From: Actinomycetota bacterium | GTDB taxonomy: Bacteria; Actinomycetota; Thermoleophilia; Solirubrobacterales; Thermoleophilaceae | DNA length: 38,312 bases | Assembly (NCBI GenBank): GCA_005885165.1 | Contig: VAXR01000060.1 | Coordinates: 1-38,312 of the forward strand | Direction: 5' to 3' | Shown here: piece after piece, positions 1,743-30,549 of the stretch | How positions within the stretch are numbered: the stretch's first letter is position 1 | Layout of the letters: each line of letters starts with the position of its first letter | Notes under the pieces: model-generated | The model's database searches: none | What the model was told of the DNA's origin: nothing | What the model saw: the letters and a program-made list of their open reading frames with translations, nothing else | Made by a program: the position numbers and the translations under genes

Positions 1743-1758
1743 CGCTGCGCGCGGGGGG

Positions 1759-3039: not shown

Positions 3040-3149
3040 GAGAGGGGGGGTCCGGCCGGAGCGGCCACACCATAGCGACCGCCCTCGCCGTCCTCGCCGG
3101 GTCTCTGCAGCGCGCGCCGTTCGAACCGGTTTAGGCTGCCGACCCGGAA

Positions 3150-5876: not shown

Positions 5877-6100
5877 TCGCCGCAGCACGTAGACGTTGCG
5901 AATGCGTCAGCCGCGGTCGCGCGTGCGCTCGTACGCTCGCGCGCTCCGCTCCTACGCTCGCGCACCACCCGCGCCTCCGGAGGGCGACGAACAAGGGGGT
6001 GGAAGTTACGTTCCCGTCACCCTCGTCGCGCTGCTGTCACGCGGCGTTCGGCCCCCGCCGAGCACGAGGGTCCTTCGAGCGTAGTCCGCCCGAGCAGCTG

Positions 6101-6216: not shown

Positions 6217-6813
6217 CTACTGCTTGTGGTTGGCCGTGCCGTTCGGGGCGAGGACCCACCACGTGCCGCCGAACTCGCTGACGCCCTGGCACAGGACCTC
6301 GCCGGGGTCGCGCTCGCCCACGTAGCGGTAGAGCGGCTGGCCGGCGTAGGTCGCCTGCAGGGTGCCGTCGTTCCGGCGGACGGTCCCGAGCAGGCTCTGC
6401 TTGACCGGGCCCTGCGCGACCGGCGTCTGCTTGACGATCACCGGCGGCCACTTGACGGCGCAGTCGCCGTAGCAGGTGCTGGGGCGGCCCGGTGTGTCGT
6501 GCGTGAACACGTAGACCGCGTGGCCGCCGGGCACCTGGAGGATCCGGCCGTACTGGGAGCGGAAGGCCGAGATCGGGATCGGCTTCGGCGCCGACGCCCG
6601 GCTACCCGTCGAGTGGCCGGCGGCGGCCTTGCTTCCACCGGCCTTCTTGCCGCCCGCTCCGCCTGACGTGCCGGTGCCGGTCGTCTCGGACATGCCTCTT
6701 GCCTGACTCGAGGCGCTCGCGTGGCTCTTGTGGGAGCTGCTGCAACCAGCTGCCGCCAGCGCCACCGCCGCCACCAGTACAAGGGCCAGAACCGATCCAG
6801 CACGGCGTGTCAT
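6217..6813 (-). CDS. Lipoprotein with Yx(FWY)xxD-type secreted repeats (COG4315-like)
   Basis: Lipobox AAAGC follows signal MTRRAGSVLALVLVAAVALAAAGC. The C-terminal half has two repeats of the type CYGDCAVKWPPV ... GQPLYRYVGE ... GGTWWVLAPNG. ATG 6813 is preferred over GTG 6828. Confidence 0.7.
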   Translation of the reverse strand: MTRRAGSVLALVLVAAVALAAAGCSSSHKSHASASSQARGMSETTGTGTSGGAGGKKAGGSKAAAGHSTGSRASAPKPIPISAFRSQYGRILQVPGGHAVYVFTHDTPGRPSTCYGDCAVKWPPVIVKQTPVAQGPVKQSLLGTVRRNDGTLQATYAGQPLYRYVGERDPGEVLCQGVSEFGGTWWVLAPNGTANHKQ

Positions 6814-6930
6814 GACCGTGTGGTCCACGAGCGGGACCCTACGTTACGAATCGGAGGATTCATCGGAGGACTCGCGGCGTCCGACCACGGGGACCCACGG
6901 CGTCCCGGCCCGGGCGTAGATTCGGGCGCT

Positions 6931-9858: not shown

Positions 9859-12800
9859 TGGCGCGGGCCCCTCTCACGAAGGAGCAGCGAGAAGCCGTCG
9901 AGCGCCGCGACGGTCCGCTGTTCGTGCGCGCCGGGGCCGGCACGGGCAAGACGCGGGTTCTTGTCGAGCGTTTCCTGGCGTGCGTGCTCGAGGACGGCGT
10001 CCCGGTCGACCGCATCCTCGCGATCACCTTCACAGACCGCGCGGCGGCCGAGATGCGCTCGCGCGTCCGGGCCCGCCTGCTCGAGCTCGGCGAGCGCGAT
10101 CGCGCCCGCGAGGCGGAGTCCGCTGCGATCTCCACGATCCACGCGTTCTGCGCCCGGCTGCTCCGCACGGGCGCGCTCGACGCGGGACTCGATCCAGAGT
10201 TCGCGGTGCTCGAGGACGTCGCGGCCGCGCGGATCACGATCGACGCGTTCGACAACGCGCTCGAGCAGTTCCTGCACGACGCCCGAGGCACGAGCGAGCT
10301 CGATTTGGCGGCGACATACGGGCCGGACCGTCTTCGGACGATGGTCACCACGGTCCATGCGCGCCTCCGCAGCCGCGGTGAGCGTCGGCCGGGGCTGCGG
10401 CCCGTGGAGGCACCGCCCGGGGCGAGCGAGGACGACCGCAAGGCGGTCGCCGACCACGCTCTGCTCGCGCGGCTGCTCGAGCTCTTCGGCGACCGCTACG
10501 CGCGCCTGAAGGAGGAGCGCTCGGCGCTCGACTTCGACGACCTCGAGCTGTGCACGCGGGATCTCCTGTCGAGCCAGCCGGCGCTCGGCGCCTCGATCCG
10601 CGAACGATTCGCACACGTGATGGTCGACGAGTTCCAGGACGTGAACCCGCTCCAGGAGGAGCTGCTCGAGCTCGTCTCGGGCGGCAACCTCTTCGCCGTC
10701 GGCGACGAGCAGCAGTCGATCTACGGCTTCCGCCATGCCGACGTCGAGATATTCGAGCGCCGGCTCGCCGCGGCGCGCGAGGCCGGCCGCGCCACGTCGC
10801 TGACCACGAACTTCCGCAGCCGCCCCGAGATCCTGAACGTGATCGACCTCGCCTTCGGGTCGATCTGGGCGGAGGGGGGCTTCGAGCCGCTGCGGCCCGC
10901 CGAGCCGCAGGGGGGCGCTGCGGCTGCGCGCACCTCGCCCTGCGTCGACCTGATGCTCGTCGATCGGACCAAGGGTTGCTGGGACGGCCTCGGAGACGAC
11001 CCGTTCGGCGCCACGATCGGCGACGTCACGGTCTGGCGTGCGGCCGAGGCGCGCCTGCTGGCGCAGCGCATCTCCGAGCTGGCCGGGCCGGGACGACCGT
11101 TCGAATGGGGCGACGTGGCGGTGCTCGTGCGCGCCGGCACCGACATGCACGTCTACGAGCGGGCCCTCGCCGAGCGGGGGATCCCGGCGTACGCCCACGG
11201 CGGACGCGGGTTCGCCGACGCCCAGCAGGTGAGCGACCTGCGCGCGTATCTCGCAGGGCTGGCCAACCCTCTCGACGAGCTCGCCCTGGTGTCGGTGCTC
11301 GCTTCGCCGCTCGCGGGCGTAACGCTCGGCGGCATCGCCTGTCTGCGCCTTCGCGCCCGCCGGCTCGGCCGCGGCCTCTGGCACGCCGTCCGGGAGGCCT
11401 TCCTGCCGGGCGGCGACGGATCGGACGACCTGGCCGGCGCGCTCGATGAGCGGGACCGGGACGCCCTCGCCGCCTTCGCCGGGCGCTTCGCCGGCGAGCG
11501 GGCGATCGCGCCGCGGCTGTCGCTCGAGGCGCTGATCGACCGCGTGGTCACCGAGTCCGGGTACGACGTCGCGGTCCTCGCGATGCCGGCCGGCGACCGG
11601 CGGCTGGCCAACGTCCGCAAGCTGATGCGGATCGCGAGGCGCTTCGAGTCGACCGACGGGCGCGACATCCGCGGCTTCATCGACCACCTGGACGAGCGGC
11701 GGCTGCTCCAGTCGCGCGAGGCCGAGGCGCCAGTCGAGGGGGAGACGAGCGAGCCGGCCGTGCGCGTGATGACCGTCCACGCCGCGAAGGGGGTCGAGTT
11801 CCCCGTGGTCTGCGTCGCCGACCTCGGGCGCGAGGCGCGCCAGGACAGCGGCGGCGGCCTCGAGGTCTCCCAGGACGGGCGGATCGGCCTGCGGCTCGCG
11901 TCGCTCTCGGGCGAGACGCGCGGCGCGCTCGACTGGGAGGAGCTCAAGCATGAGCAGGCCGAGCGGGGAGAAGAGGAGGAGCGCAGGATCTTCTACGTCG
12001 CGATGACGCGCGCGGAGGAGCACCTGGTGCTGAGCGGTGCGGTCGACGCGAAGCGCTGGCCCGAGCCGCGCCCGCTGGGCGCGCCGATCGACTGGATCTG
12101 GCGGGCGGTCGCCCCGGGGGCTAGCGAGACGCTCGCGCACGCCCACGAGGGTGAGGAGCGTCGGGCCTTCGAGGGCCAACCGGCAGCCGTCTCGCTCCGC
12201 CTGTGCGGGCCGGGATCGGTTGACGCCCTCCTGCCCGGCAAAGCGCGCGCGCCAGACGTCGCCGCCGCGGATGCCCTGGACGAGGGCGACCGCCGTACCG
12301 TGCCGTCGTTCGAGTCGCCCCGGGTACCGGCGTCGCTGCCCGTCCCACGCCTGAGCTACTCCGCCCTCGAGAGCTACCAGCGGTGCGGGTACCGCTTCTA
12401 CCTCGAGCGCGTGGCGCAGCTCCGCGGTCCCGAGGCCGGCCCGCGCGTGCGGCCCTCCGCCGCGTCGAACGGCCAGCTGGTCCTCGACGTCGACGCCGCC
12501 GCTGCCGAGCTCCCGGCCGAGGACGAGCCGACCGGGATCTCCGCGCTGCTGCGAGGGACCATCGTGCACGAGCTACTCGAGGGCCTCGACTTCGCGCGGC
12601 CGGCCGTGCCGGACGAGGAGCGGATCGCGGCGTCGATCGCCGCACACGGCGCCCCGGCCGGGCCTGAGGAGGTCGCCCGGATCGCCGAGCTGATCGCGGG
12701 CTTCGCCGGCTCCGAGCTGTGCGCGCGGGTCGGACGCGCGGCGCGTGCTCGTACGGAGCTTGCGTTCTCGTTCGAGCTCGCGCCCGGTCCCGACGGCGTG

Positions 12801-13229
12801 CGCTCGCTCCTCGTGAACGGCGTGGTGGACGTGCTGGCCGAGGAGCCCGGCGGGCTCCTGATCGTGGACTACAAGACCGATCCGCTGGAGGGGCGCACGC
12901 CGGCGTCGATCGTTGAGGAGAGCTACGACACGCAGCGGCTGGTCTACGCGCTTGCTGCGCTGCGATCCGGCGCTCCCCAGGTCGAGGTCGCCTACTCGTT
13001 CCTCGAGGCGCCCGGCGACCCGGTGCTCCGGTCATTCGGCTCCGGGGACGCGGCCGCGCTCGAACAGGGGCTGCTCGCCCTGGCCGACGGCGTGCTCGCG
13101 GGCCGCTTCGCGCCCACCGACGCTCCGCACCGCGAGCTCTGCCTGACCTGCCCGGGCCGCGCGACGCTCTGCACGTGGGGCCCCGAGCACACGCTGCGGG
13201 AACGTCCGGAGCCCGCTTTACGCTCGTGA
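9858..13229 (+). CDS. UvrD/Rep-family helicase with C-terminal RecB-type nuclease, AddA/AdnB-like
   Basis: ATG 9858 (ATGA overlap). Motifs seen: GAGTGKT Walker A, MVDEFQDVNP motif II, TVHAAKGVEF, C-terminal LLIVDYKTD nuclease motif, and Cys pattern YQRCGY ... CLTCPGRATLC. Confidence 0.85.
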   Translation: MARAPLTKEQREAVERRDGPLFVRAGAGTGKTRVLVERFLACVLEDGVPVDRILAITFTDRAAAEMRSRVRARLLELGERDRAREAESAAISTIHAFCARLLRTGALDAGLDPEFAVLEDVAAARITIDAFDNALEQFLHDARGTSELDLAATYGPDRLRTMVTTVHARLRSRGERRPGLRPVEAPPGASEDDRKAVADHALLARLLELFGDRYARLKEERSALDFDDLELCTRDLLSSQPALGASIRERFAHVMVDEFQDVNPLQEELLELVSGGNLFAVGDEQQSIYGFRHADVEIFERRLAAAREAGRATSLTTNFRSRPEILNVIDLAFGSIWAEGGFEPLRPAEPQGGAAAARTSPCVDLMLVDRTKGCWDGLGDDPFGATIGDVTVWRAAEARLLAQRISELAGPGRPFEWGDVAVLVRAGTDMHVYERALAERGIPAYAHGGRGFADAQQVSDLRAYLAGLANPLDELALVSVLASPLAGVTLGGIACLRLRARRLGRGLWHAVREAFLPGGDGSDDLAGALDERDRDALAAFAGRFAGERAIAPRLSLEALIDRVVTESGYDVAVLAMPAGDRRLANVRKLMRIARRFESTDGRDIRGFIDHLDERRLLQSREAEAPVEGETSEPAVRVMTVHAAKGVEFPVVCVADLGREARQDSGGGLEVSQDGRIGLRLASLSGETRGALDWEELKHEQAERGEEEERRIFYVAMTRAEEHLVLSGAVDAKRWPEPRPLGAPIDWIWRAVAPGASETLAHAHEGEERRAFEGQPAAVSLRLCGPGSVDALLPGKARAPDVAAADALDEGDRRTVPSFESPRVPASLPVPRLSYSALESYQRCGYRFYLERVAQLRGPEAGPRVRPSAASNGQLVLDVDAAAAELPAEDEPTGISALLRGTIVHELLEGLDFARPAVPDEERIAASIAAHGAPAGPEEVARIAELIAGFAGSELCARVGRAARARTELAFSFELAPGPDGVRSLLVNGVVDVLAEEPGGLLIVDYKTDPLEGRTPASIVEESYDTQRLVYALAALRSGAPQVEVAYSFLEAPGDPVLRSFGSGDAAALEQGLLALADGVLAGRFAPTDAPHRELCLTCPGRATLCTWGPEHTLRERPEPALRS

Positions 13230-13230
13230 C

Positions 13231-14673
13231 ATGAATGGCGGAGTGCGCCTCGAGGCCGCGGGTGATCGCCCGGCGGCGGCGCCTGGCGCAGCGGAGGCCG
13301 GTGCCACCGGCGTGCCCGGCTATCCCGGGCCGTACGCGGTCGGCCGCTACGCGGCGCGGCTCCGCGAGCGGCTCCGCGAGCTCGCCCGTGTCTGCCTGAT
13401 CGGGGAGGCCACGGGCGTACGGATCGGCGCGGGGCCGAACGTCTACTTCGAGCTGCGCGACGCCGACGGCGCAATTCCGTGCGCGATGTGGCGAACGGAC
13501 TTCGAGCGCCAGGGGCTGAGCGCCGACGAGTTCCGCGACGGCGTCGAGGTCGTGGCCGCCGGCGGCTGCGACTTCTATCCGGGCAGCGCAAGCGCCTCGC
13601 CGCGGTTCGCGTTTCGCGTCGAGCAGCTTCGCCTCGCGGGCGAGGGCGACCTGCTCGCCCGGCTGGCGCGGCTACGCCGCCAGCTCGCCGCCGAGGGGCT
13701 GTTCGAGCCCCAGAAGCTCCTCCCGCGCCGCGTGCTTCCCCGCCGGATCGGGGTCGTGACGGCGGACGCCAGCGCCGCGCGGCGCGACTTCCTCGCCGGG
13801 CTCGAGCGGCGCGCCTGGCGCGGGACGATCGTGTGGGCGTACGCGCCGGTCCAGGATCGCCGGGCCGCGCCGGCGATCGCCGCGGCGGTGCGCGACCTGG
13901 CGGCCTTCGCCGGGGTCGAGGCGATCGTCGTGACGCGCGGCGGCGGCAGCATCGCCGACCTCTGGGCGTTCTGCGACGAGACGCTGTGCCGCACCGTCGC
14001 GCTCACCCCGATTCCCGTGATCAGCGCGGTCGGGCACGAGGTGGACCGCACGCTGATCGACGACGTCGCGGCGGTCTCCTGCTCCACGCCCACCCACGCG
14101 GCCGAGGCCGCGGTGGGAATCGACTGCGCGGCAGCGCGCGCGGCGCTGTCCGTCGCGGCCCGCACGATCGACTCCGCCGGCCGATCGGCCGTACTGGTAC
14201 GCGCGCGCGAGCTGGCGGGCCACTCGCGGGCCCCGCGCGAGCACCTCTCGCGCCACCGGCGGCGCCTGCACCAGCTCGCGCGCGAGCTGCGCGCCGCCAC
14301 CTCGCGCGGTAGGTCCATGCGGTTGGAGTTCCAGCGCCGGATCGCCCTGACCGTCATGCGCCGCAAGGCCGAGGCCGAGGAGCGGCGCATCGCGGCGGAG
14401 CGCCGCGCGCTCGTCGGGCGCACGGGATCGCTCGCGGACTCCGCCGAGCGAGCCGGAGAGCGCCGCGCGACGGCGGTTGCCGCGTTCGCGGCCGCTTTGA
14501 GGGCTCACGACCCGGAGCGCACGCTCGAGCGCGGATACGCGCTGGCGCTCGATGCGCGGGGCGAGCCGCTCACCGACCCGCTGGCCGTGCGCCGCGCGGG
14601 GAAGTTCGACCTGCGCCTGGCCGGCGGCACCGTCCCGGCGCGACCACTGGATTCAACGCAGGAGGAGAGATGA
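13231..14673 (+). CDS. xseA: Exodeoxyribonuclease VII large subunit
   Basis: 480-aa ORF that starts 2 nt after the upstream stop. It shows an OB-fold-like N-terminus (NVYFELRDADGAIPCAMW), a catalytic core (IGVVTADASAARRDF, VTRGGGSIADLWAFCDE, ISAVGHEVD), and a coiled-coil tail. It is followed by xseB with an ATGA overlap. Confidence 0.9.
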   Translation: MNGGVRLEAAGDRPAAAPGAAEAGATGVPGYPGPYAVGRYAARLRERLRELARVCLIGEATGVRIGAGPNVYFELRDADGAIPCAMWRTDFERQGLSADEFRDGVEVVAAGGCDFYPGSASASPRFAFRVEQLRLAGEGDLLARLARLRRQLAAEGLFEPQKLLPRRVLPRRIGVVTADASAARRDFLAGLERRAWRGTIVWAYAPVQDRRAAPAIAAAVRDLAAFAGVEAIVVTRGGGSIADLWAFCDETLCRTVALTPIPVISAVGHEVDRTLIDDVAAVSCSTPTHAAEAAVGIDCAAARAALSVAARTIDSAGRSAVLVRARELAGHSRAPREHLSRHRRRLHQLARELRAATSRGRSMRLEFQRRIALTVMRRKAEAEERRIAAERRALVGRTGSLADSAERAGERRATAVAAFAAALRAHDPERTLERGYALALDARGEPLTDPLAVRRAGKFDLRLAGGTVPARPLDSTQEER

Positions 14674-14918
14674 CGACAGAGACGACGACCCCTCAGCCGG
14701 CTCCGACCTACGAGTCGGCTGTCGAGCGGCTCGAGCAGATAATCGCGAGGCTCGACTCGAACCAGGCGGGGCTCCGCGAGACGCTCGAGCTGTGCGCCGA
14801 GGGCCGCGGGCTGATCGAGTTCGCCGCGGCTGAGCTCGAGGCGGTCGGCCGCGGGCTCGAGGAGCTGCGGCTCGACGAGCTCATACAGCGCCTCGAGGCC
14901 GAGGCGCCCGCCGCCTGA
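14670..14918 (+). CDS. xseB: Exodeoxyribonuclease VII small subunit
   Basis: 82-aa ORF with the typical YESAVERLEQIIARLDS...LRETLELCAEGRGLIEF helix-hairpin. It is translationally coupled to xseA. Confidence 0.9.
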   Translation: MTTETTTPQPAPTYESAVERLEQIIARLDSNQAGLRETLELCAEGRGLIEFAAAELEAVGRGLEELRLDELIQRLEAEAPAA

Positions 14919-15527: not shown

Positions 15528-16037
15528 GTGAGACGGTCCCGGCGCCAGTTCCTCATTCCCTGGCTGGTCGCGGCCGCGCTGGCCGTCGCGCTGATCGTCA
15601 CCCGCACGGGCGATGACGGCAAGCCGAGCTTCGACGGCGCTCCGTCGGCCAGGGTCCAGCGGGTGGTCGACGGCGACACGGTTCGCCTCGTCGGCCTCGG
15701 GCCCGTCCGGCTGATCGGCGTCAACACGCCAGAGGTGTACGGGCACGTGCAGTGCTTCGGGCCGGAGGCGTCCGCCTTCGCGAAGCGCGTGATGCGCAAG
15801 GGGGCGGAGGTCCGATACCGGATCGGCAGGGAGGCGCACGATCGCTACGGGCGCCTGCTCGCGTACGTGTGGCTTCCCGACGGCCGGCTGTTCAACAAGA
15901 TGCTGGTCGACGGCGGCTACGCGGAGCCGCTCACGATCCACCCGAACGACCAGCTCGCGCCGACGTTCCGGGCGGCCGCCGCCCACGCGCGCGCGGCCCA
16001 CGCGGGCATGTGGGCGCACCCCGGCTGCGCCCCTTGA
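15528..16037 (+). CDS. Thermonuclease (staphylococcal nuclease/SNase) family protein, membrane-anchored or secreted
   Basis: N-terminal hydrophobic segment FLIPWLVAAALAVALIV. SNase blocks VVDGDTVRLVG...VRLIGVNTPE and DRYGRLLAYVWLPDGRLFNKMLVDGGYA are present. Confidence 0.85.
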   Translation: MRRSRRQFLIPWLVAAALAVALIVTRTGDDGKPSFDGAPSARVQRVVDGDTVRLVGLGPVRLIGVNTPEVYGHVQCFGPEASAFAKRVMRKGAEVRYRIGREAHDRYGRLLAYVWLPDGRLFNKMLVDGGYAEPLTIHPNDQLAPTFRAAAAHARAAHAGMWAHPGCAP

Positions 16038-21560: not shown

Positions 21561-22517
21561 ATGCCCGCCGCCCCCGAGAGGCTGCTTCTCGCCGCGCCGC
21601 GCGGCTACTGCGCCGGCGTCGACCGCGCCGTGCAGACGGTAGAGCGCGCGCTCGAGCTCTACGGCCCGCCGGTCTACGTCCGCAAGGAGATCGTCCACAA
21701 CAAGCACGTGGTCGAGCAGCTCCGCGAGCGCGGAGCGGTCTTCGTGGACCAGGAGACCGAGGTGCCGGAGAGTGAGACGGTTGTCTTCTCGGCGCACGGG
21801 GTCGCGCCGAGCGTGCACGCCAACGCCGAGCGGCGCACGCTGCGGACCATCGACGCCACCTGCCCGCTCGTAACCAAGGTCCACGTCGAGGCGAAGAAGT
21901 TCGCGGCCCAGGGCTACACGATCGTGCTGATCGGGCACGCGGGCCACGAGGAGGTCGAGGGGACGATGGGGGAGGCGCCCGAGAGCATCGTCCTGATCGA
22001 GACCGAAGAGGACGTTGACCGGCTCGAAGTCGAGGATCCGGAGCGCGTCGCCTACATATCGCAGACGACGCTGTCGGTCGACGAGACGGATGCGATCATC
22101 GCCCGGCTGCGCGAGCGCTTCCCGAGCATCGTCGGGCCGCGGACCGACGACATCTGCTACGCGACCACCAACCGCCAGGCTGCGGTGCGCGAGATGGCAG
22201 GCGAGTGCGACCTCGTGCTGGTGATCGGCTCGAAGAACTCGTCGAACTCGAACCGCCTGGTTGAGGTCGCCCGTGCCCACGGGGCCGAGGCGCACCTGAT
22301 CGACAACGAGCTGCTCGTCGAGGAGGAGTGGCTCGAGGGCAAGCGCACCGTCGGGATCACGTCGGGGGCGAGCGCGCCCGAGGAGCTCGTGCAGCGGCTC
22401 GTCGACTTCTTCCGCGAGCGCGGCACGCGCGAGGTGAGCGAGTTCGAGGTCGTCCAGGAGGACGTCCGCTTCATGCTGCCGAAGGAGATCAGGAAGGCGA
22501 TGGCGGCAACGGCGTGA
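21561..22517 (+). CDS. ispH: 4-hydroxy-3-methylbut-2-enyl diphosphate reductase
   Basis: ATG 21561. LLLAAPRGYCAGVDRAV, IVHNKHVV, IDATCPLVTKVH and SSNSNRL are hallmark IspH/LytB blocks that include the three cluster Cys. Confidence 0.95.
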   Translation: MPAAPERLLLAAPRGYCAGVDRAVQTVERALELYGPPVYVRKEIVHNKHVVEQLRERGAVFVDQETEVPESETVVFSAHGVAPSVHANAERRTLRTIDATCPLVTKVHVEAKKFAAQGYTIVLIGHAGHEEVEGTMGEAPESIVLIETEEDVDRLEVEDPERVAYISQTTLSVDETDAIIARLRERFPSIVGPRTDDICYATTNRQAAVREMAGECDLVLVIGSKNSSNSNRLVEVARAHGAEAHLIDNELLVEEEWLEGKRTVGITSGASAPEELVQRLVDFFRERGTREVSEFEVVQEDVRFMLPKEIRKAMAATA

Positions 22518-23310
22518 ACTGGAAGCCGTGCAGCCGCAGGCCGGGCTCCTCGGCCACGACCGTTCCGTCGCTCTCGTAGAGGCCGGGCTCGACCTCGGCG
22601 CCGGACAGCACTGCCCAGGCGCCGCCCGCCCGGAACCGCATCGTCGCTGACGCCCCGGCGTCGGCCGCCTCGATGTAGTCCTCTCCGTCGGTCCAATCGC
22701 GCACCAGCTCGAGGCGGCCGCGGTCCGCCGGCAGCGCCACATCGGCGGTCTGCGGCTCGAACAGCGCGCCGGGGGCGTCCTCGGGGCGGATAGGGGCCAT
22801 GGGCGCCGGCGGCTCGAAATCGGGATCGATCTCGCGCAGGAGCTCCTGGATGGCGAGCTCGGTGCCCTCGTAGTCGCCCTCGCCGTAGTGGTAGTAGCGG
22901 AGGACGCTTCTGCGGTCGAAGAGGTAGCGCCCCGGCCACCCCCGGTTTCCGTACAGGCGCCATACCGCGAAGTCGGGGTCGAGCGCGACCGGGAAGGGGA
23001 CCTCGAGCGCCTCAACCGCGCGCGTAGCCACCTGACGGTCGCGCCCGAACGAGTAGCCCGGGGAGTGGACCGCGATCACCCGCAGGCCGGCATCGGCGTA
23101 GCGCTCGTGCCACTCCTTCAGGTAGGGCAGCGTGCGCAGCGAGTTGATGCGCGCGGAGTCCCAGAACTCGACGAGCACGGCGTGCCGGCCAATGAGCCGG
23201 TCCATGCGCAGGAACGCGACCCCCAGCCAGTCGAGCTCGGGTGGAAACGCCGCAATTCCACACCAGGCCCGCACGCCGCAACTTTCCGGTGCGCCCACCG
23301 TTGATATCAA
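22489..23310 (-). CDS. DipZ C-terminal-like protein: thioredoxin-fold domain lacking CxxC plus jelly-roll-like domain
   Basis: LIGRHAVLVEFWDSARINSLRTLPYLKEW aligns in my memory to the FWTYSCINCxRTLPY block of DipZ-type redoxins, but both Cys are replaced. The start is uncertain (TTG 23310, GTG 23298 or GTG 23274). The 3' end overlaps ispH by 29 nt. Confidence 0.6.
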   Translation of the reverse strand: MISTVGAPESCGVRAWCGIAAFPPELDWLGVAFLRMDRLIGRHAVLVEFWDSARINSLRTLPYLKEWHERYADAGLRVIAVHSPGYSFGRDRQVATRAVEALEVPFPVALDPDFAVWRLYGNRGWPGRYLFDRRSVLRYYHYGEGDYEGTELAIQELLREIDPDFEPPAPMAPIRPEDAPGALFEPQTADVALPADRGRLELVRDWTDGEDYIEAADAGASATMRFRAGGAWAVLSGAEVEPGLYESDGTVVAEEPGLRLHGFQFTPLPPSPS

Positions 23311-24944: not shown

Positions 24945-25059
24945 CCCCTGGACGAGCACGAGCTCGTTGACGCTCACCCCTCCCGAATCGGCACGGCCGC
25001 CCCGGAGGCTGAGCCGCGGGCGCCTCACGACGCGCCCGGTTCGCGGGCCGGCAGTGGAC

Positions 25060-25677
25060 TCACGACGCGCCCAGCGCGCGGAGGTCGTGAGCCAGCCGCT
25101 CCGGCGTGGCCTGCTGCGCCGGGTAGCCGACGCGCTGCATCCCGCGGGCGTCGGCCAGCACGAGCCTGGCCTGGTGCTCCTCGTGCGGGAGCTGCGGCCG
25201 GATCGCGAAGGCCCGCCAGAGCGGAGCGAGCTGCTGCCGCGTTCCGAGCAGGAAGTGCATCCGGCCTGTCATCCCGACCTTCGCGAGAAAGCGGCGTGCG
25301 CTGCCGGGCGTGTCGTGTGCGGGATCGACCGAGATGGCGATCGCCGTGACGGGCCCCCGCAGGTCGTCGAGCGCCCCCTTCACCTGCTGCGCGGTTATCG
25401 GGCAGGTGTCGTGGCAGTGGCTGTAGAGGAACGTGATCACGGCGGGCCGGCCGAGCAGCGTCCTGGAGGAGACCTCGCGGCCGTCCTGGTCCTTGAGATT
25501 GAAGTTCGGAACGCGCAGGCCCGCGGGGAGGAGGGCGCCGTTGAAGTGCGAGGCGGGGCCCGAAGCGGAGCCGCGCAGGTCGTTCGCTTCGTGGTGGGCG
25601 CGAGTCGCTGCCAAAACGACCGCCGCGAAGGCGAGAGCGGCGCCGGCGACTAGGAGGGCGATCCAGCGGGGTCTCAT
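25060..25677 (-). CDS. SCO1/SenC family copper chaperone (thioredoxin fold)
   Basis: N-terminal anchor RWIALLVAGAALAFAAVVLA. The CxxxC motif is in FLYSHCHDTCP. Downstream are the SVDPAHDTP block and a conserved His (EEHQARLVLAD). Confidence 0.85.
   Translation of the reverse strand: MRPRWIALLVAGAALAFAAVVLAATRAHHEANDLRGSASGPASHFNGALLPAGLRVPNFNLKDQDGREVSSRTLLGRPAVITFLYSHCHDTCPITAQQVKGALDDLRGPVTAIAISVDPAHDTPGSARRFLAKVGMTGRMHFLLGTRQQLAPLWRAFAIRPQLPHEEHQARLVLADARGMQRVGYPAQQATPERLAHDLRALGAS
25275..25367. repeat. 93-bp inverted repeat, copy A (native context inside the SCO gene)
   Basis: Its reverse complement is identical at all 93 positions to 26473-26565 (checked base by base). It encodes DLRGPVTAIAISVDPAHDTPGSARRFLAKV of the SCO protein. 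Confidence 0.95.
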
Positions 25678-25764
25678 CCGGCCCCAATCGTTGCAGCCCT
25701 CCGGCTTGGATCAGGTAGGCGACGAAGGGAGGGGAGCCATCGCCGCTCCGGAAATCCGGAGCAA

Positions 25765-25801
25765 TCCTGACTTAGCTACCCATACTGTGGCTAAGTCAGG
25801 A
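25765..25801. repeat. 37-nt palindromic element (perfect 12-bp arms, 13-nt centre)
   Basis: TCCTGACTTAGC-TACCCATACTGTG-GCTAAGTCAGGA lies in the divergent SCO / E1 intergenic region. It is immediately preceded by a second hairpin, CTCCGG-AAAT-CCGGAG. A degenerate copy lies at 6101-6137. Confidence 0.7.
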
Positions 25802-25898
25802 ATGCTCTCGAAGAATGTGCTTTCGTTGCCATACTCGAGGCGGTTCGGAGGCCTTGATCGCTTGGACCTGACCGCCCTGACGGGCCGGACCTCCAACG

Positions 25899-25913
25899 CT
25901 ACACTTTCTGAAG
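25899..25913 (+). promoter_or_regulatory. Shared 15-nt motif CTACACTTTCTGAAG (contains a -10-like TACACT) upstream of the E1 gene
   Basis: It is identical to 27553-27567. CTGACG lies 17 nt upstream of TACACT and is -35-like. The motif sits 78 nt before ATG 25991. Confidence 0.45.
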
Positions 25914-25990
25914 TAATAAGCCGATGTGAGGCTTTGAGTCAAGCCGATTTGCGGTTTGATCGAAGCTCTCCTGAGGCACAGGAGCCCTAG

Positions 25991-27122
25991 ATGCCCAGCG
26001 GTTCAGAGCTGATACGACAGATTCGAGACCAGGTACGCGAGCTCGATCCCCGCGAGGTTCACGACGCCCTGGCGAGCTCGAACGGCAACGGGCGCGTGCC
26101 GGTGCTGGTCGACGTCCGCGAGCAGCACGAGTTCGAGGAGGCGCATATCCCGGGAGCCATCCATGTCCCGCGCGCCTATCTCGAGTCGCGAATCGAGGGG
26201 AAGGTCGGCGACAAGTCGCAGTCTGTCGTCCTTTACTGCGCGACCGGTCAGCGTTCGGCGCTCGCCGCTCACACGCTCGAGCACCTGCTCGGTTACCAGG
26301 ACGTTGCGTCGATGAACGGCGGGATCACGCTCTGGAAGGACCGCGGCTTCGAGGTGGAGACGCCCCGCGCGCTGAGCGCCGAGCAGAAGAGCCGCTACTC
26401 GCGCCATCTCCTGCTTCCCGAGATCGGGCTCGAGGGCCAGCTCAAGCTGCTTGACGCGAAGGTTCTTCTGCTACGACCTGCGGGGGCCCGTCACGGCGAT
26501 CGCCATCTCGGTCGATCCCGCACACGACACGCCCGGCAGCGCACGCCGCTTTCTCGCGAAGGTCGACTCCGCCGAGCAGACCATCAACTCGCTCAACCCC
26601 GACGTCGAGGTGGTCAAGTACAAGACGCGCCTCGACGCGTCGAACATCATGGAGATCATCGACGGCTACGACGTGATCGTCGACGGCGCCGACAACTTCC
26701 CGACGCGCTACCTGCTGAACGACGCGACAGTCCGGCTCGGGATCCCGGTGGTCTCGGCGTCGATCCTCGGCTTCGACGGCCAGCTCTCGGTGTTCGCGCC
26801 GTACGAGGGCCCGTGCTACCGCTGCCTCTACCCGACCCCGCCGCCCGCGGAGCTCGCGCCGTCGTGCGGTGCCAACGGCGTGCTCGGCGTCCTGCCGGGC
26901 ACGATGGGGATGCTCCAGGCCACCGAGGTGATCAAGCTGATCACCGGGTCCGGCGAGCCGCTGATCGGGAGGCTGCTCCTGTACGACGCATTGGGCGCGA
27001 CGTTCACGGAGCTCAAGGTTCGCCGGGATCCGAACTGCCCGATCTGCTCGCGCGACCCCGATTCCATCTCCGAGGAGGAGATGGGGAAGTTCCCTGACTA
27101 CGAAGCCTTCTGCGCCGGCTAG
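25991..27122 (+). pseudogene. Rhodanese + ThiF/MoeB-type E1 (MoeZ-like sulfur-carrier adenylyltransferase/sulfurtransferase), disrupted
   Basis: The N-terminal part (frame of 25991) holds a rhodanese domain with CATGQRS, followed by RYSRHLLLPEIGLEGQLKLLDAKVLLL. The C-terminal part (frame of 26451) runs DSAEQTINSLNPDVEVV...DGADNFPTRYLLND...CYRC...CPIC. Between them lie 93 bp of SCO-derived sequence and a frame change. The GxGxxG nucleotide-binding loop is absent. Confidence 0.8.
26473..26565. repeat. 93-bp inverted repeat, copy B (ectopic, inside the E1 gene)
   Basis: This is the perfect reverse complement of 25275-25367. On the plus strand it reads the SCO peptide in the same frame as the downstream E1 half. 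Confidence 0.95.
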
Positions 27123-27253: not shown

Positions 27254-27535
27254 ATGAGCACGGTCAAGATTCCGCCGGTGCTCCGGTCGGCAACGGGTGG
27301 CGAGAAGGAGGTCGGAGCGGACGGCTCGAACGTCGGCGAGGTGCTGCGCTCGCTCGCCGAGCGCCACCCCGAGACCCAGCATCAGCTCTTCTCCGAGGAA
27401 GGCGAGCTGAACCGTTACGTGAACGTGTACCTGAACGACGAGGACGTACGTGTGCTGGCCGGGCTTGAGACTCCGGTCAGCGAGGCCGACATACTCGTGA
27501 TCCTCCCGGCGATGGCCGGCGGGTCCCCCGGTTAG
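27254..27535 (+). CDS. cysO: ThiS/MoaD-family sulfur carrier protein CysO, with a GG-SPG C-terminus
   Basis: 93 aa. PPVLRSATGGEKEV...RYVNVYLNDEDVR...ILVILPAMAGGSPG* closely parallels mycobacterial CysO, but three residues follow the Gly-Gly. Confidence 0.9.
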   Translation: MSTVKIPPVLRSATGGEKEVGADGSNVGEVLRSLAERHPETQHQLFSEEGELNRYVNVYLNDEDVRVLAGLETPVSEADILVILPAMAGGSPG

Positions 27536-27552
27536 CACGCGTTAGGGCACTA

Positions 27553-27567
27553 CTACACTTTCTGAAG
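27553..27567 (+). promoter_or_regulatory. Shared 15-nt motif CTACACTTTCTGAAG directly upstream of cysM
   Basis: It is identical to 25899-25913. TTAGCA (27531-27536) lies 17 nt upstream of TACACT (27554-27559). The motif ends 2 nt before ATG 27570, so there is no room for a Shine-Dalgarno sequence. Confidence 0.45.
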
Positions 27568-27569
27568 CG

Positions 27570-28541
27570 ATGATCGAGCCGCGACTCGACAATCAGCCGT
27601 GCGGGGGGAAGTACGCGGACATCGTTCAGGCCATCGGGCACACGCCGCTCGTGGAGCTGCGCCGGCTCTCGCCGAAGCCCGGCGTCCGGATCTACGCGAA
27701 GCTCGAGAGCTACAACCCGACCGGCTCGGTCAAGGACCGCGTGGCTCGCGCGATGCTCGAGGACGCGGAGGCGCGGGGTGCGATCTCTCCGGGACAGACG
27801 ATCCTCGAGCCGACGTCCGGCAACACCGGGATATCGCTGGCGATGATCTGCTCGCGCAGGGGCTACCCGCTGAAGGTCGTCATGCCGGACAACGTGACCG
27901 AGGAGCGCACCCAGCTCCTCAGGATGTACGGGGCGGAGATCGCCTACTCCCCGGGCGCGCAGGGGTCGAACGGCGCGGTCGCGATGGCGCTCGAGATGGC
28001 CGAGGCCGACGCCTCGTACTACATGCCGTACCAGTACGGCAACGAGGCGAACCCGCTCGCCCACTACAACGGCACCGCCGTGGAGATACTCGAGGAGCTC
28101 GACGACGTCGCCGCCTTCGTCGGCGGCCTTGGAACCGGCGGCACGCTGATGGGCTGCGCCCGCCGACTCAAGGAGGAGGACCCGGACACGCTGATCGTGG
28201 CGGCCGAGCCGCTCCAGGGCGAGCAGGTGCAGGGGCTCCGCTCGCTCGAGGACGGCTACATCCCGCCGATCCTCGACCTCTCGTTGCTGGACCGCAAGAT
28301 CTTCGTCTCCAACCGCGACGCCGTCGTTTGGACCAAGCGCCTCCTCGCCGACGAGGGCCTCTTCACCGGTGTCTCCGCCGGTGCCGTCGCGTCGATTGCG
28401 GTGCGCGTCGCCCAGGACATCGACGAGGGCAGCGTGGTCTTCGTCGTGCCGGACGACGGCTGGAAGTACCTGAGCTCCGGCGTGTACTCGAAGCCGCTCG
28501 AGGAGCTCGAGGACTCGCTCGAGTCGGCGTCGTTCTGGTAG
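27570..28541 (+). CDS. cysM: Cysteine synthase B-type PLP enzyme (CysM, CysO-thiocarboxylate dependent)
   Basis: 323 aa. Blocks seen: NPTGSVKDR (PLP Lys), EPTSGNTGISLA, GLGTGGTLMG, DDGWKYLSSGVY. It is collinear with mycobacterial CysM as I recall it. Confidence 0.9.
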   Translation: MIEPRLDNQPCGGKYADIVQAIGHTPLVELRRLSPKPGVRIYAKLESYNPTGSVKDRVARAMLEDAEARGAISPGQTILEPTSGNTGISLAMICSRRGYPLKVVMPDNVTEERTQLLRMYGAEIAYSPGAQGSNGAVAMALEMAEADASYYMPYQYGNEANPLAHYNGTAVEILEELDDVAAFVGGLGTGGTLMGCARRLKEEDPDTLIVAAEPLQGEQVQGLRSLEDGYIPPILDLSLLDRKIFVSNRDAVVWTKRLLADEGLFTGVSAGAVASIAVRVAQDIDEGSVVFVVPDDGWKYLSSGVYSKPLEELEDSLESASFW

Positions 28542-29500: not shown

Positions 29501-30207
29501 GTCGGCTTGCTCCCGGTGACGACCGCTTGCGGAGCCTGCGGCTCGTGGAGCTCGCCGAGGATCACCGACATGTGCTCGGCCTCGGTGGCGAGGATCGATG
29601 CGAGCGTGGCCCGCAGCCCCGGAGCCGCGACGGTGCCCAGCGCATTGACGTAGGCCGAGACCTGCGTGTTCTCCACGTCGAGGGCGAAGCGCAGCGCCGA
29701 TTCCGCGTCGGAGAGCCGGGGGAAGCCCGCCGAGTAGGCCGCTGGCGTTCTGCGGATCGGCGGCTTCCCTCCGAGCGAGAGGATCGCGCGGGTGAGTGCA
29801 CCCTAGTGCTCCTCCTCGTGCCCCAGGAACCGCACCCCGGTGGCGCGTGCCGCACCTGCGAGGCGCCCCATCCCCAGCCGGTACGCGGCGATCGCCGTGC
29901 GCTCCGCCTCGATCAGCGCGCTCACGACCGCGGCATCGGCTTGCACCTGGGTGGGGTTGACAGTCGGCAGCGTTCGCGCGCCGCCCCCGCCGCACCCGGC
30001 GCGCAGCACGGCCATGCCCGCACCTGCGCCGCCGCCCGCGAGCCGGACGGCATCGCGTCGCGACAGCGCGCCGCCCGCTTCGGCGCGGGGCCGCCCCGGG
30101 GTCGGCGGGGTGTCTCGCGCTCCGGCGTCGATCCGGGGATCGTATTCGGTGTCTACGCTCTCGGCATGCGCATCTCGCGCGCACTGCTGGACGAGCTTGT
30201 CGCACAC
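29497..30207 (-). pseudogene. Tat-signal ferritin-like domain protein (paralog) interrupted by an in-frame TAG
   Basis: A single frame reads ...LSRRDAVRLAGGG...SALIEAERTAIAAYRL...RFLGHEEEH-TAG(29805-29803)-GALTRAILSLGG...ATEAEHMSVILGEL...*. The stop aligns with Ala in the paralog block QHAAAL. The 5' end is uncertain: ATG 30015 lies after the RR motif, and GTG 30207 would overlap mec. Confidence 0.55.
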
Positions 30208-30549
30208 GCGCGAGAGGAGGCGCCGAACGAGTGCTGCGGCTACGCGCGCGTGAACGAGGGGGTGGTGGAGGAGGTGTTTCGCGGCGAGAACATGCGCCAC
30301 TCGCCATACGGCTTCGACCTGGATCCGCAGAGCCTCCTCGCCGCGAACGAGCTCGACGGCGAGGGCTTCGGAGTGGCCGTGTACCACTCCCACCCGCGCA
30401 GCGCGGCCGAGCCCTCCGAGCAGGACCGCAACCTCGCGCAGTATCCGCACTGGACCTACCTGATCGTGTCGCTCGACGGAGAGCCCGAGGTCAGGGCGTG
30501 GAAGATCGCCGATGGACGGGTCGAGGAAGAAGCGCTCCAGGTCGACTGA
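30166..30549 (+). CDS. mec: JAMM/MPN+ metalloprotease (Mec, CysO-cysteine peptidase)
   Basis: 127 aa. The catalytic Glu is in EAPNECCGY. The JAMM motif is HSHPRSAAEPSEQD (HxHx7Sx2D). Confidence 0.85.
   Translation: MRISRALLDELVAHAREEAPNECCGYARVNEGVVEEVFRGENMRHSPYGFDLDPQSLLAANELDGEGFGVAVYHSHPRSAAEPSEQDRNLAQYPHWTYLIVSLDGEPEVRAWKIADGRVEEEALQVD

What the first reader, a model, noticed from the sequence alone, without database searches (positions are those of the whole stretch)
26473..26565. E1 (MoeZ-like) gene destroyed by a perfect 93-bp inverted copy of an internal segment of the neighbouring SCO gene
Positions 26473-26565 are the exact reverse complement of 25275-25367. The donor copy lies inside an intact SCO1/SenC gene 1.1 kb away.

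**What was lost.** In the E1 gene the copy sits where the Rossmann/GxGxxG ATP-binding segment should be, between ...AKVLLL and DSAEQTINSLNPDVEVV. By comparison with ThiF/MoeB proteins, it replaces an estimated ~150 nt of native sequence. It also shifts the reading frame by one.

**Junction details.**
- The right junction falls in AAGGTCG. This encodes Lys-Val in SCO (..LAKV) and plausibly in the native E1 (..PKVDSA..). That looks like microhomology and explains why the SCO peptide is in frame with the E1 C-terminal half.
- The duplicated segment is itself bounded by a 6-nt inverted repeat, CGACCT...AGGTCG.

The pattern fits a microhomology-mediated template switch between inverted templates, which is a rarely documented way of killing a gene. 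It leaves the adjacent cysO-cysM-mec pathway without its local activating enzyme.
Basis: partly seen in the sequence, partly recalled or inferred. Interest (0 to 1): 0.7.

Follow-up and report, generated by a model that had tools for sequence, protein, structure and literature searches.

The report
Inverted patch in E1 gene, probably misassembly
A sulfur-carrier-activating enzyme gene in this soil-bacterium contig is interrupted by a perfect 93-base backwards copy of part of the neighbouring gene, but comparison with about twenty sibling assemblies suggests this is more likely an assembly error at a hard-to-assemble G-rich spot than a real mutation.

Summary
Positions 26473-26565 are the exact reverse complement of 25275-25367, and the next-longest exact repeat in the window is 28 nt. 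Sibling contigs from the same soil population (99-99.9% identical) give the ancestral allele: 142 nt coding the Rossmann GxGxxG segment are replaced by 83 foreign nt plus a 10-nt shared stretch (GCGAAGGTCG). The net change is -59 nt, a frameshift. The left junction is blunt.

I doubt the event is biological.
- All 14 other contigs spanning the site are native.
- Neither junction occurs in any searchable public contig or protein.
- The window carries a second private blunt lesion, a 38-nt deletion at 23248|23249.
- Both left breakpoints fall, to the base, on contig-piece ends of independent assemblies: an N-gap start and scaffold end in an IDBA-UD scaffold, and a MEGAHIT contig end.
- Both missing segments begin with GGGCGCGGG, and contig ends cluster on both sides of that motif.
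- Two other contigs show chimeric ends, one of them inverted, in the same part of E1.

Estimates: local assembly or scaffolding error about 0.57; real end-joining repair scar with a captured nearby fragment (Streptomyces precedent) about 0.28; another real structure about 0.1. Read mapping would settle it.

The parts
26473..26565 (+). Inverted copy of the SCO segment sitting inside the E1 gene. 83 nt (26473-26555) are foreign to E1; the last 10 nt are shared with native E1.
   Evidence: 100% reverse complement of 25275-25367; absent at this place in all sibling contigs.
25275..25367 (-). Donor copy, native to the SCO1/SenC gene. It codes residues ~104-134 (DLRGPVTAIAISVDPAHDTPGSARRFLAKV).
   Evidence: Pfam SCO1-SenC match covers residues 58-169; identical 93 nt present once, in SCO, in every sibling contig; no population SNP at either boundary.
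26556..26565 (+). Right-junction microhomology GCGAAGGTCG, present in both the donor (reverse complement) and native E1.
   Evidence: Chance of 10 nt or more is 7.6e-5.
26472..26473 (+). Left junction, blunt (0 nt microhomology). In the native allele 26472 is followed directly by GGGCGCGGGCGGG. IDBA-UD scaffold_15696 (L084/L101) and MEGAHIT contig k141_3624054 (L088) both end exactly at 26472.
25991..26472 (+). E1 5' fragment: rhodanese domain plus the first ~25 residues of the ThiF domain (160 codons, open, ends ...AKVLLL).
   Evidence: Rhodanese, E = 1.7e-21; only 2 amino-acid differences from the intact allele.
26565..27122 (+). E1 3' fragment: ThiF profile positions 78-237 of 238, in the +1 frame relative to the 5' fragment. 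The protein is identical to the intact allele.
   Evidence: ThiF, E = 7.1e-46.
25060..25677 (-). Intact SCO1/SenC copper-chaperone gene (205 aa, CHDTC motif), transcribed divergently from E1.
   Evidence: the identical protein is found on 23 public contigs.
23248..23249 (.). Second window-private lesion: a blunt 38-nt deletion (native TCGGGCGCGGGAATATCGGCGCCTGCGGGCGGTCGCAT). It removes the ATG and 12 codons of the minus-strand thioredoxin-like gene. An N-gap of scaffold_15696 starts exactly here.
   Evidence: (14 loci carry the 38 nt).
27254..28541 (+). Downstream partners: ThiS/MoaD-like sulfur carrier (27254-27535) and CysM/CysK-type PLP enzyme (27570-28541). A JAB/Mec-like peptidase lies at 30172-30549.

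Best explanation
The 93-nt patch is most likely a local assembly or scaffolding error, not an allele carried by a cell.

Proposed sequence of events (inferred):
1. The population is a mix of closely related strains in soil metagenomes.
2. Contigs of the window's strain type stop on either side of two G-run sites (GGGCGCGGG...). One of these codes the E1 Rossmann GAGGLG.
3. In the window's assembly, the pieces were abutted without Ns.
4. At 23248|23249 this dropped 38 nt.
5. At 26472|26473 the left piece was joined to a right-hand piece whose end was chimeric. That end held E1 3' sequence fused, through a 10-nt inverted match, to reverse-complemented SCO sequence from 1.2-1.3 kb away. That distance is about the fragment length of these libraries.

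On this reading E1 is intact in the organism.

Shown: the coincidences of position, the shared motif, the absence of the junctions elsewhere, and the existence of similar chimeric contig ends.
Inferred: which assembler made the window, and how the right junction arose.
For: (1) All 14 unique sibling contigs that span the site carry the native 142 nt. One of them (L097) shares the window's strain marker T at 26452.

(2) Neither junction is found elsewhere:
- not in JGI metagenome contigs;
- not in 131 fetched loci totalling 1.1 Mb;
- not as an exact gene product;
- not among 5.8 billion protein clusters.

(3) Over 4669-32029 the window has exactly two private structural differences, and both are blunt on the left.

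(4) Both left breakpoints coincide to the base with piece ends in other assemblies. The N-gap of IDBA-UD scaffold_15696 starts at 23248, and that scaffold ends at 26472. MEGAHIT contig L088 also ends at 26472.

(5) GGGCGCGGG occurs only 3 times on the + strand in 26.9 kb of native sequence. Two of those copies open the two missing segments.

(6) Five unique contig or piece ends lie within 20 nt of the two sites, on both sides. About 0.15 would be expected. L088 starts just after motif 1, and L115 starts just after the motif-2 G-run cluster. Branching between a native and a lesion allele does not explain those right-hand ends.

(7) The 72-N gap estimate in scaffold_15696 fits the native length (79 nt) better than the deletion allele (41 nt). 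Other gap estimates are accurate to 2-19 nt.

(8) Other contigs have chimeric ends at the same part of E1:
- L131 begins with a 148-nt inverted copy, at only 85% identity, of its own E1 region, joined at the Rossmann site.
- L096 has 470 unrelated nt joined inside E1.

(9) The sibling assemblies come from an IDBA-UD pipeline that needed a 'scaffolding error correction' step (PMC6784897). Consensus without support from any read is described as prominent in IDBA-UD, with 13 errors in 1.13 Mb (PMC7111523; PMC5220378).

(10) Both E1 fragments are otherwise undamaged. The 3' fragment's protein is identical to the intact allele.
Against: - De Bruijn graph assemblers cannot join sequences across a 10-nt or 0-nt overlap, so the right junction at least must exist in some read or molecule. 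I could not name a concrete tool step that makes it.
- A 10-nt microhomology (P = 7.6e-5) and a donor in cis 1.28 kb away are the hallmarks of a polymerase or repair event.
- The window is long (38 kb, no Ns) and otherwise collinear with its siblings, so its strain was not poorly covered overall. Well-covered sibling strains pass both G-run sites without trouble (0 of 14 break).
- If lesion alleles coexist with native alleles, a graph branch at exactly 23248 and 26472 would also explain the coinciding left-hand piece ends.
- I do not know which assembler produced the window, or whether it was scaffolded.
Confidence: 0.57

Rival explanations
1. This is a real loss-of-function allele made in vivo by double-strand-break repair.

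Proposed steps:
1. A break arises in E1 at or next to the G-run.
2. The right end is resected by about 140 nt.
3. Its 3' tail (...GTCGACCTTCGC-3' on the bottom strand) anneals to the identical 10-mer in SCO, 1.28 kb away on the opposite strand.
4. It is extended by 83 nt and released.
5. It is ligated without homology to the left end, in the manner of Ku/LigD end joining.

The 38-nt blunt deletion would be a second scar of the same kind in the same lineage. Both alleles would be polymorphic in the population.
For: - One junction has 10-nt microhomology, the other is blunt, and native sequence was lost.
- The strand geometry works out exactly (sequence).
- There is an experimental precedent in another actinobacterium. 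[quoted passage not shown]
- The ancestral allele exists on the same strain background (L097).
- Coexisting native and lesion alleles would make graph branches at exactly 23248 and 26472, which explains the piece ends in L101 and L088.
- Graph assemblers need reads to make such junctions.
Against: - It needs two independent, rare, gene-damaging blunt lesions 3.2 kb apart in one lineage.
- Both begin at the same 9-mer, at offsets (-2 and 0) that match the piece ends of other assemblies to the base.
- Right-hand piece ends lie next to the motif (L088 at +10, L115 at +20) rather than at the allele merge points 23249 and 26556.
- No other assembly, contig or protein carries either junction.
- The E1 remnants show no decay.
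- Ku and LigD were not found in the window. They were not looked for specifically; the domain scans show only AddB/AdnB-type and ExoVII genes.
Confidence: 0.28
2. Only the right junction is real, and the true structure is different from the one shown. A fold-back (inverted-duplication) or inversion junction formed between the 10-nt inverted repeats CGACCTTCGC (SCO, 25275-25284) and GCGAAGGTCG (E1). It could have formed in a subpopulation, or in vitro by snap-back priming of a single strand ending at 25275. The inverted SCO sequence would then continue past 25367, and the 93-nt length is an accident of where the contig piece ended and was abutted to 26472.
For: - The minus strand carries both 10-mers in self-complementary arrangement 1.28 kb apart. 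A minus-strand 3' end at 25275 can therefore fold back on the E1 site and prime exactly the observed junction (sequence).
- The patch's left end lies 3 nt from another G-run in the donor context (...AAGGGGGCGCTCG|ACGACC), like the other piece ends.
- L131 shows a fold-back-type contig end at the same gene.
- Foldback priming at breaks is an established route to inverted duplications in yeast (PMC10622511, listed; abstract only read).
Against: - The window is native at the reciprocal breakpoint: SCO is intact across 25274|25275. This excludes a simple inversion in that genome.
- A large inverted duplication would be hard to maintain in a bacterial chromosome.
- No contig shows SCO sequence continuing past the patch.
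Confidence: 0.1

Closest known systems
Local assembly / scaffolding errors of short-read metagenome assemblers (IDBA-UD in particular), as described by Chen et al. 2020 (PMC7111523) and targeted by ra2.py
   Same: The lesion is private to one assembly. It sits at positions where other assemblies of the same population have contig ends or N-gaps. The join is blunt with sequence lost. It occurs in a strain-mixed soil population assembled with IDBA-UD and MEGAHIT. The published rate (13 per 1.13 Mb) makes one or two per 38 kb unsurprising.
   Different: Published descriptions do not mention an inverted fragment from 1.2 kb away joined through a 10-nt match. Read support could not be examined here, and the window's assembler is unknown.
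DNA-fragment capture at end-joining repair scars in Streptomyces ambofaciens (Hoff et al. 2018, PMC5869714)
   Same: It is an actinobacterium. The insertions at a repaired break were 42 or 83 bp taken from a nearby chromosomal region, with loss of native sequence and little or no homology at junctions. The 83 foreign nt here are the same size.
   Different: Those scars followed an engineered I-SceI cut and were verified in clones. Here there is no known break, no clone, and only one assembly. Orientation and microhomology details of the Streptomyces inserts were not checked.
Quasipalindrome-associated template-switch mutation (E. coli; e.g. PMC7202029) and short-range template switching (PMC8794818 and related work)
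   Same: A stretch is replaced by the reverse complement of nearby sequence, creating or perfecting an inverted repeat.
   Different: Those events act within imperfect hairpins over tens of nt and use pairing at both switch points. Here the donor is 1.1-1.3 kb away, there is no pre-existing quasipalindrome beyond 10 nt, and one junction has no pairing at all.
MoeZ/CysO/CysM/Mec cysteine pathway of Mycobacterium tuberculosis (own knowledge: Burns et al. 2005)
   Same: The gene set in one neighbourhood matches: a ThiF-type E1 with a rhodanese domain, a ThiS/MoaD-like carrier, a CysM-type PLP enzyme and a JAB peptidase.
   Different: The E1 has the rhodanese domain at the N-terminus. It belongs to NCBIfam NF006444 (PRK08762 'MoeB'), not to the MoeZ model (374 bits against a cut-off of 647). 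The carrier's best NCBIfam match is SAMP1/MoaD-arch. No function was tested.

Membership tests
Local assembly / scaffolding error | The consensus at the site is not supported by any single read or proper read pair | not testable with these tools
   No reads are available. This is the decisive test.
Local assembly / scaffolding error | The site coincides with a contig-piece boundary or gap | tested here: met
   By proxy. In independent assemblies of the same population an N-gap starts at 23248, and a scaffold and a contig end at 26472. The window's own piece structure is unknown.
Local assembly / scaffolding error | The structure is absent from independent assemblies of the same population | tested here: met
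   14 unique contigs are native. The junctions are absent from 131 loci, from JGI metagenome contigs and from the protein collection.
Templated insertion at a double-strand-break repair scar (NHEJ/MMEJ type) | The inserted DNA is a copy of genomic sequence, with the ancestral allele known and native sequence lost | tested here: met
   93-nt perfect copy of SCO; 142 nt of native E1 lost; ancestral allele found in L097 and 13 other contigs.
Templated insertion at a double-strand-break repair scar (NHEJ/MMEJ type) | Junction microhomology consistent with primed copying at one end and ligation at the other | tested here: met
   10 nt at the right junction, 0 nt at the left. The strand geometry is consistent.
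Templated insertion at a double-strand-break repair scar (NHEJ/MMEJ type) | The allele exists in cells (reads, clones or independent assemblies) | tested here: inconclusive
   It was not found anywhere else. ENA and Logan contigs could only be searched through exact protein products, and reads not at all.
Quasipalindrome / short-range template switch | A pre-existing imperfect inverted repeat around the site, with pairing at both switch points | tested here: not met
   Only a 10-nt inverted match at one end. The left junction has 0 nt. The donor is 1.1-1.3 kb away.
MoeZ (NCBIfam NF005902) | Full-length match above the curated cut-off; ThiF domain N-terminal and rhodanese C-terminal | tested here: not met
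   The intact allele scores 374 bits against a cut-off of 647, and only its ThiF part aligns. The rhodanese domain is N-terminal.
MoeB, PRK08762 type (NCBIfam NF006444) | Full-length match above the curated cut-off | tested here: met
   The intact allele (L091) scores 556 bits against a cut-off of 449, covering residues 6-395 on profile positions 5-384 of 387. The window's copy lacks profile positions equivalent to ThiF 28-77.
SCO1/SenC | Pfam PF02630 above the gathering score, and a CxxxC copper-binding motif | tested here: met
   72.9 bits against 22.8. CHDTC is present in the translation.

The most novel reading that the evidence does not exclude
Both lesions are real scars of breaks at G-run (G4-like) sites in one lineage of an uncultivated soil member of the Thermoleophilia. 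Each starts exactly at the 5' edge of GGGCGCGGG. One was healed by blunt end joining. The other was healed by priming on a 10-nt match in the neighbouring gene, copying 83 nt, and then blunt ligation. That would be a natural-population example of G-run-triggered, end-joining-type repair with templated insertion in bacteria. It would also knock out the E1 of a local sulfur-carrier cysteine pathway.
Probability: 0.2. Interest if true: 0.55.

Novelty: not a real feature. Interest (0 to 1): 0.22.

Why it matters
If it is an artefact, the value is practical.
- A striking 'gene killed by an inverted copy of its neighbour' in a public metagenome contig should not be read as biology, nor annotated as a pseudogene, without read support.
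- Comparing sibling assemblies exposed the problem: private blunt lesions that fall on other assemblies' contig ends.
- G-run-coding Rossmann motifs in high-G+C genomes appear to be places where contigs break and chimeric ends form.

If it is real, it would be a rare natural example in bacteria of break repair that captures a nearby fragment through microhomology. So far this is known mainly from engineered breaks in Streptomyces. It would also show loss of the activating enzyme of a CysO/CysM-type pathway segregating in a soil population.

Tried and rejected
- **Chance repeat.** Rejected: 93 nt against the next-best 28 nt.
- **Sequence native to this E1 family.** Rejected: intact orthologues and near-identical siblings have the Rossmann segment instead.
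- **Deliberately or randomly pasted segment.** Unlikely, given the 10-nt microhomology and the fact that other assemblies' contigs end at the junction.
- **Invertible switch between the two 93-nt arms.** Inversion would fuse SCO residues 1-134 in frame to the E1 C-terminus and would destroy SCO. It restores neither gene, so this was rejected by reasoning.
- **Simple inversion between the 10-nt inverted repeats.** Rejected for the window's genome, because SCO is native across 25274|25275.
- **The 93-nt segment is a graph unitig bounded by strain SNPs.** Not supported: the nearest SNPs are at 25149 and 25372. The contig set is biased, though, because it was selected for identical SCO proteins.
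- **The window is derived from scaffold_15696 with its Ns removed.** Rejected: there are 26 mismatches over 12.8 kb, and the window contains 23249-23289, which that scaffold lacks.
- **Tandem duplication or circle joining the two motif copies, to explain the ends of L088.** The predicted unitig ends do not match (reasoning).
- **Gap closing by a minimum 10-nt overlap.** This rests on my recollection of SPAdes and was not checked. It needs a dead end at 25275 and same-strand read pairs, so I consider it unlikely.
- **Searches that found nothing.** Exact products of both chimeric ORFs; XseA and the acyl-CoA dehydrogenase ORFs as look-up handles; Rfam and tRNA scans.
- **The window's own record** is not in the searchable collections, so its sample and assembler stay unknown.

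Full report
**1. Observation**

Positions 26473-26565 are the perfect reverse complement of 25275-25367 (93 nt, 1105 nt apart). In this 38,312-nt window (71.2% G+C) the next-longest exact repeats are 28 nt (direct) and 22 or 18 nt (inverted). The repeat is therefore real and not due to chance.

**2. The genes**

- The minus-strand ORF 25060-25677 is an SCO1/SenC protein (Pfam 72.9 bits; CHDTC motif). The donor segment lies inside the Pfam match.
- On the plus strand, 25991-26472 codes a rhodanese domain followed by ...SRYSRHLLLPEIGLEGQLKLLDAKVLLL.
- After the patch, and in another frame, 26565-27122 matches ThiF profile positions 78-237 of 238.
- Downstream lie a ThiS/MoaD-like carrier, a CysM/CysK-type enzyme and a JAB peptidase.
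- There is no second ThiF gene in the window.

**3. The ancestral allele**

Exact-protein look-ups with SCO, the carrier, CysM, a neighbouring hypothetical protein and XseB brought in about 50 loci from about 35 distinct contigs. They come from:
- per-sample IDBA-UD scaffolds named CRIT18-1_SAMN089028xx;
- MEGAHIT k141 contigs;
- two JGI metagenomes;
- the MAG GCA_005885525.1.

They are 96-99.9% identical to the window. The GTDB scan places the lineage among Thermoleophilaceae/Solirubrobacteraceae MAGs.

Fourteen unique contigs span the E1 site, and all carry a 396-aa intact E1. Against them the window aligns up to 26472 and again from 26556. Between those points the native allele has 142 nt (GGGCGCGGGCGGGCTAGG...GATCGGCGTA), coding [48 protein letters not shown].

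- The window has 83 foreign nt, followed by 10 nt (GCGAAGGTCG) that both the donor and native E1 possess.
- The net change is -59 nt, hence the frameshift.
- The left junction has no shared base.
- A microhomology of 10 nt or more arises by chance with P = 7.6e-5.
- L097 carries the window's strain marker (T at 26452) together with the native 142 nt. The ancestral allele therefore exists on the same background.
- The intact E1 is a full-length member of NCBIfam NF006444 (PRK08762 'MoeB', 556 bits against 449). It fails the MoeZ model (374 against 647), and its rhodanese domain is N-terminal.

**4. Is the junction seen anywhere else?**

No.
- The two chimeric ORF products are not on record.
- A 30-mer across the left junction and a 25-mer across the right junction are absent from the JGI metagenome contigs.
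- Protein searches with the chimeric ORF and with a 74-aa junction peptide found no protein covering the SCO-derived part.
- None of 131 fetched loci has either junction.

The window's own record is not in the searchable collections.

**5. A second lesion, and coincidences with other assemblies**

Over 4669-32029 the window differs structurally from all siblings at only two places: the E1 patch, and a blunt 38-nt deletion at 23248|23249. The deletion removes the ATG and 12 codons of the minus-strand thioredoxin-like gene. Fourteen loci have those 38 nt.

- In the raw IDBA-UD scaffold_15696 (L084/L101/L125), a run of 72 Ns starts exactly after 23248, and the scaffold ends exactly at 26472.
- MEGAHIT contig k141_3624054 (L088) is identical to the window over 25000-26472. 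It also ends exactly at 26472. It begins inside the native 38 nt, 10 nt after 23248.
- The 72-N estimate fits the native length (79 nt) better than the deletion allele (41 nt). Other gaps in these scaffolds are estimated to within 2-19 nt.

**6. A shared motif**

In 26.9 kb of native sequence, GGGCGCGGG occurs three times on the plus strand. Two of those copies open the two segments that the window lacks, at offsets +3 and +1.

I mapped about 65 unique true contig ends and N-gap edges. Five lie within 20 nt of these two sites, where about 0.15 would be expected, and they lie on both sides:
- left pieces stop just before the motif;
- L088 starts just after motif 1;
- L115, from a JGI sample, starts just after the G-run cluster of motif 2.

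So these sites are places where assemblies of this population break. Ends on the right-hand side of the motif are not what one expects if the breaks were caused only by a branch between a native allele and a lesion allele. Such a branch would re-merge at 23249 and 26556.

**7. Chimeric contig ends at the same part of E1**

- L096/L111 comes from the same sample as scaffold_15696. It has 470 nt of unrelated DNA joined inside the Rossmann-coding region, followed by about 70 nt of divergent E1.
- P0012/L131 is a MEGAHIT contig from a related species. It starts with 148 nt that are an inverted copy, at only 85% identity, of its own E1 region 255-402, joined right at the Rossmann site. An in-vivo copy would be near-identical, so this is an assembly or library chimera.

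Inverted chimeric ends therefore do arise at this spot in these data.

**8. What is known about these assemblies**

- The Angelo meadow study assembled each of 60 samples with IDBA-UD (k from 30 to 200). Reads were 250-nt pairs with a 500-nt inter-read spacing, so fragments were about 1 kb. 'Scaffolding errors' in the bins were then corrected (PMC6784897).
- ra2.py corrects local scaffolding errors or replaces them with Ns (PMC5220378).
- Chen et al. describe local assembly errors as consensus lacking support from even one read. [quoted passage not shown] They also note Ns inserted despite overlapping flanks (PMC7111523).

That implies the scaffolder trusts estimated distances rather than sequence. 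By inference, a negative estimate would give a blunt join with lost bases, which is what 23248|23249 looks like. The SCO donor lies 1.1-1.3 kb from the patch, within reach of these fragments.

**9. Weighing**

For an artefact:
- uniqueness of the structure;
- two private blunt lesions that fall on other assemblies' piece ends;
- the shared motif, with ends on both sides of it;
- recurrent chimeric ends at this gene;
- the known error class;
- undamaged E1 remnants (the C-terminal protein is identical to the intact allele).

For a real event:
- the 10-nt microhomology and the cis donor;
- graph assemblers need reads to make such junctions;
- the window is long, contains no Ns, and is otherwise clean;
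- well-covered sibling strains pass both motif sites;
- coexisting native and lesion alleles would also explain the left-hand piece ends;
- a close experimental precedent exists: end-joining scars in Streptomyces ambofaciens that captured 42 or 83 bp from a region near the break (PMC5869714).

If the event is real, the strand geometry is as follows.
1. The bottom-strand 3' end ...GTCGACCTTCGC at the E1 break equals plus-strand 25275-25284.
2. It pairs with the minus strand of SCO and is extended to 25367.
3. It is then ligated without homology to ...TTCTGCT.

A template switch at both ends does not fit the blunt left junction.

A third reading keeps only the right junction as real: a fold-back or inversion junction between the 10-nt inverted repeats. 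A simple inversion is excluded for this contig, because SCO is native across 25275.

**10. Verdict**

| Reading | Probability |
|---|---|
| Local assembly or scaffolding error | about 0.57 |
| Real repair scar as drawn | about 0.28 |
| Another real structure behind the right junction | about 0.10 |

The remainder is unassigned. Read mapping across three junctions would decide it in minutes. Interest is low unless the reads support the junctions.

Noticed in passing
window 23248-23249 (gene 22489-23310, minus strand): A blunt 38-nt deletion private to the window. It removes the ATG and the first 12 codons of a thioredoxin-like (AhpC/TSA, ResA-like) gene next to SCO. 14 sibling loci have the 38 nt. 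An N-gap of an independent IDBA-UD scaffold starts at exactly this base.
   Followed up: yes
native sequence at window 23249 and 26473 equivalents (L121/L091); also window 4696 (+) and 8479 (-): The 9-mer GGGCGCGGG is rare (3 plus-strand copies in 26.9 kb). It opens both segments missing from the window. Contig and scaffold-piece ends of several assemblies cluster on both sides of it. It may be a general assembly or sequencing barrier at G-run (G4-like) sites in high-G+C genomes.
   Followed up: partly
L131:1-402 (ENA ERZ27252464 k141_235314): A MEGAHIT contig of a related species begins with a 148-nt inverted copy (85% identity) of its own E1 region 255-402, fused at the Rossmann-coding site. 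The result is a called 242-aa 'ThiF' protein (P0012) with an antisense-derived N-terminus MSLIAVCAESTF. This is a chimeric protein sitting in public databases.
   Followed up: partly
L096/L111:1-620 (SAMN08902887 scaffold_63307): 470 nt of DNA unrelated to the locus are joined inside the E1 Rossmann region, followed by ~70 nt of E1 that is much more divergent than the rest of the contig. It looks like an inter-genome chimeric contig end. It yields a 252-aa 'ThiF' call (P0002).
   Followed up: partly
window 25991-27122; intact form L091:2679-3869: The E1 has its rhodanese domain at the N-terminus and ThiF at the C-terminus, the reverse of MoeZ. It belongs to NCBIfam NF006444 (PRK08762). Many relatives in the protein search are 388-396 aa with both domains.
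   Followed up: yes
window 25899-25913 and 27553-27567: An exact 15-nt A+T-rich repeat, CTACACTTTCTGAAG, lies 78 nt upstream of the E1 start and 3 nt upstream of the cysM start (0 expected by chance). The core CACTTTCTGAAG is present in 15 of 80 related GTDB loci. It may be a shared promoter or operator for the sulfur-carrier genes.
   Followed up: partly
window 25759-25807: A 21-nt inverted repeat (90% complementary, 7-nt loop): GAGCAATCCTGACTTAGCTAC / GTGGCTAAGTCAGGAATGCTC. It sits in the divergent SCO-E1 intergenic region, which is also the most strain-variable stretch (indels at 25838-25990). It may be an operator or a hairpin.
   Followed up: no
window 566-2750: Several short exact direct repeats (19-28 nt) are spaced ~1310 nt apart (566/1878, 1148/2460, 1414/2723). 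This suggests two tandem paralogous genes; the second is a GH76-like glycosyl hydrolase at 1759-3159 on the minus strand.
   Followed up: no
window 6667-14918: A run of DNA-end-processing genes: an AddB/AdnB-like nuclease-helicase (6667-9858), a UvrD-type helicase-nuclease partner (to ~13229, by synteny with L121), exonuclease VII large and small subunits (13231-14918), and a staphylococcal-nuclease-like gene (~15528-16037).
   Followed up: no
L126:339 (window 5983-6069 equivalent): One MEGAHIT sibling contig lacks 87 intergenic nt. The missing stretch is flanked by a 5-nt direct repeat (GAGGG), which is what an ordinary real microhomology deletion looks like. It contrasts with the window's blunt lesions.
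   Followed up: partly
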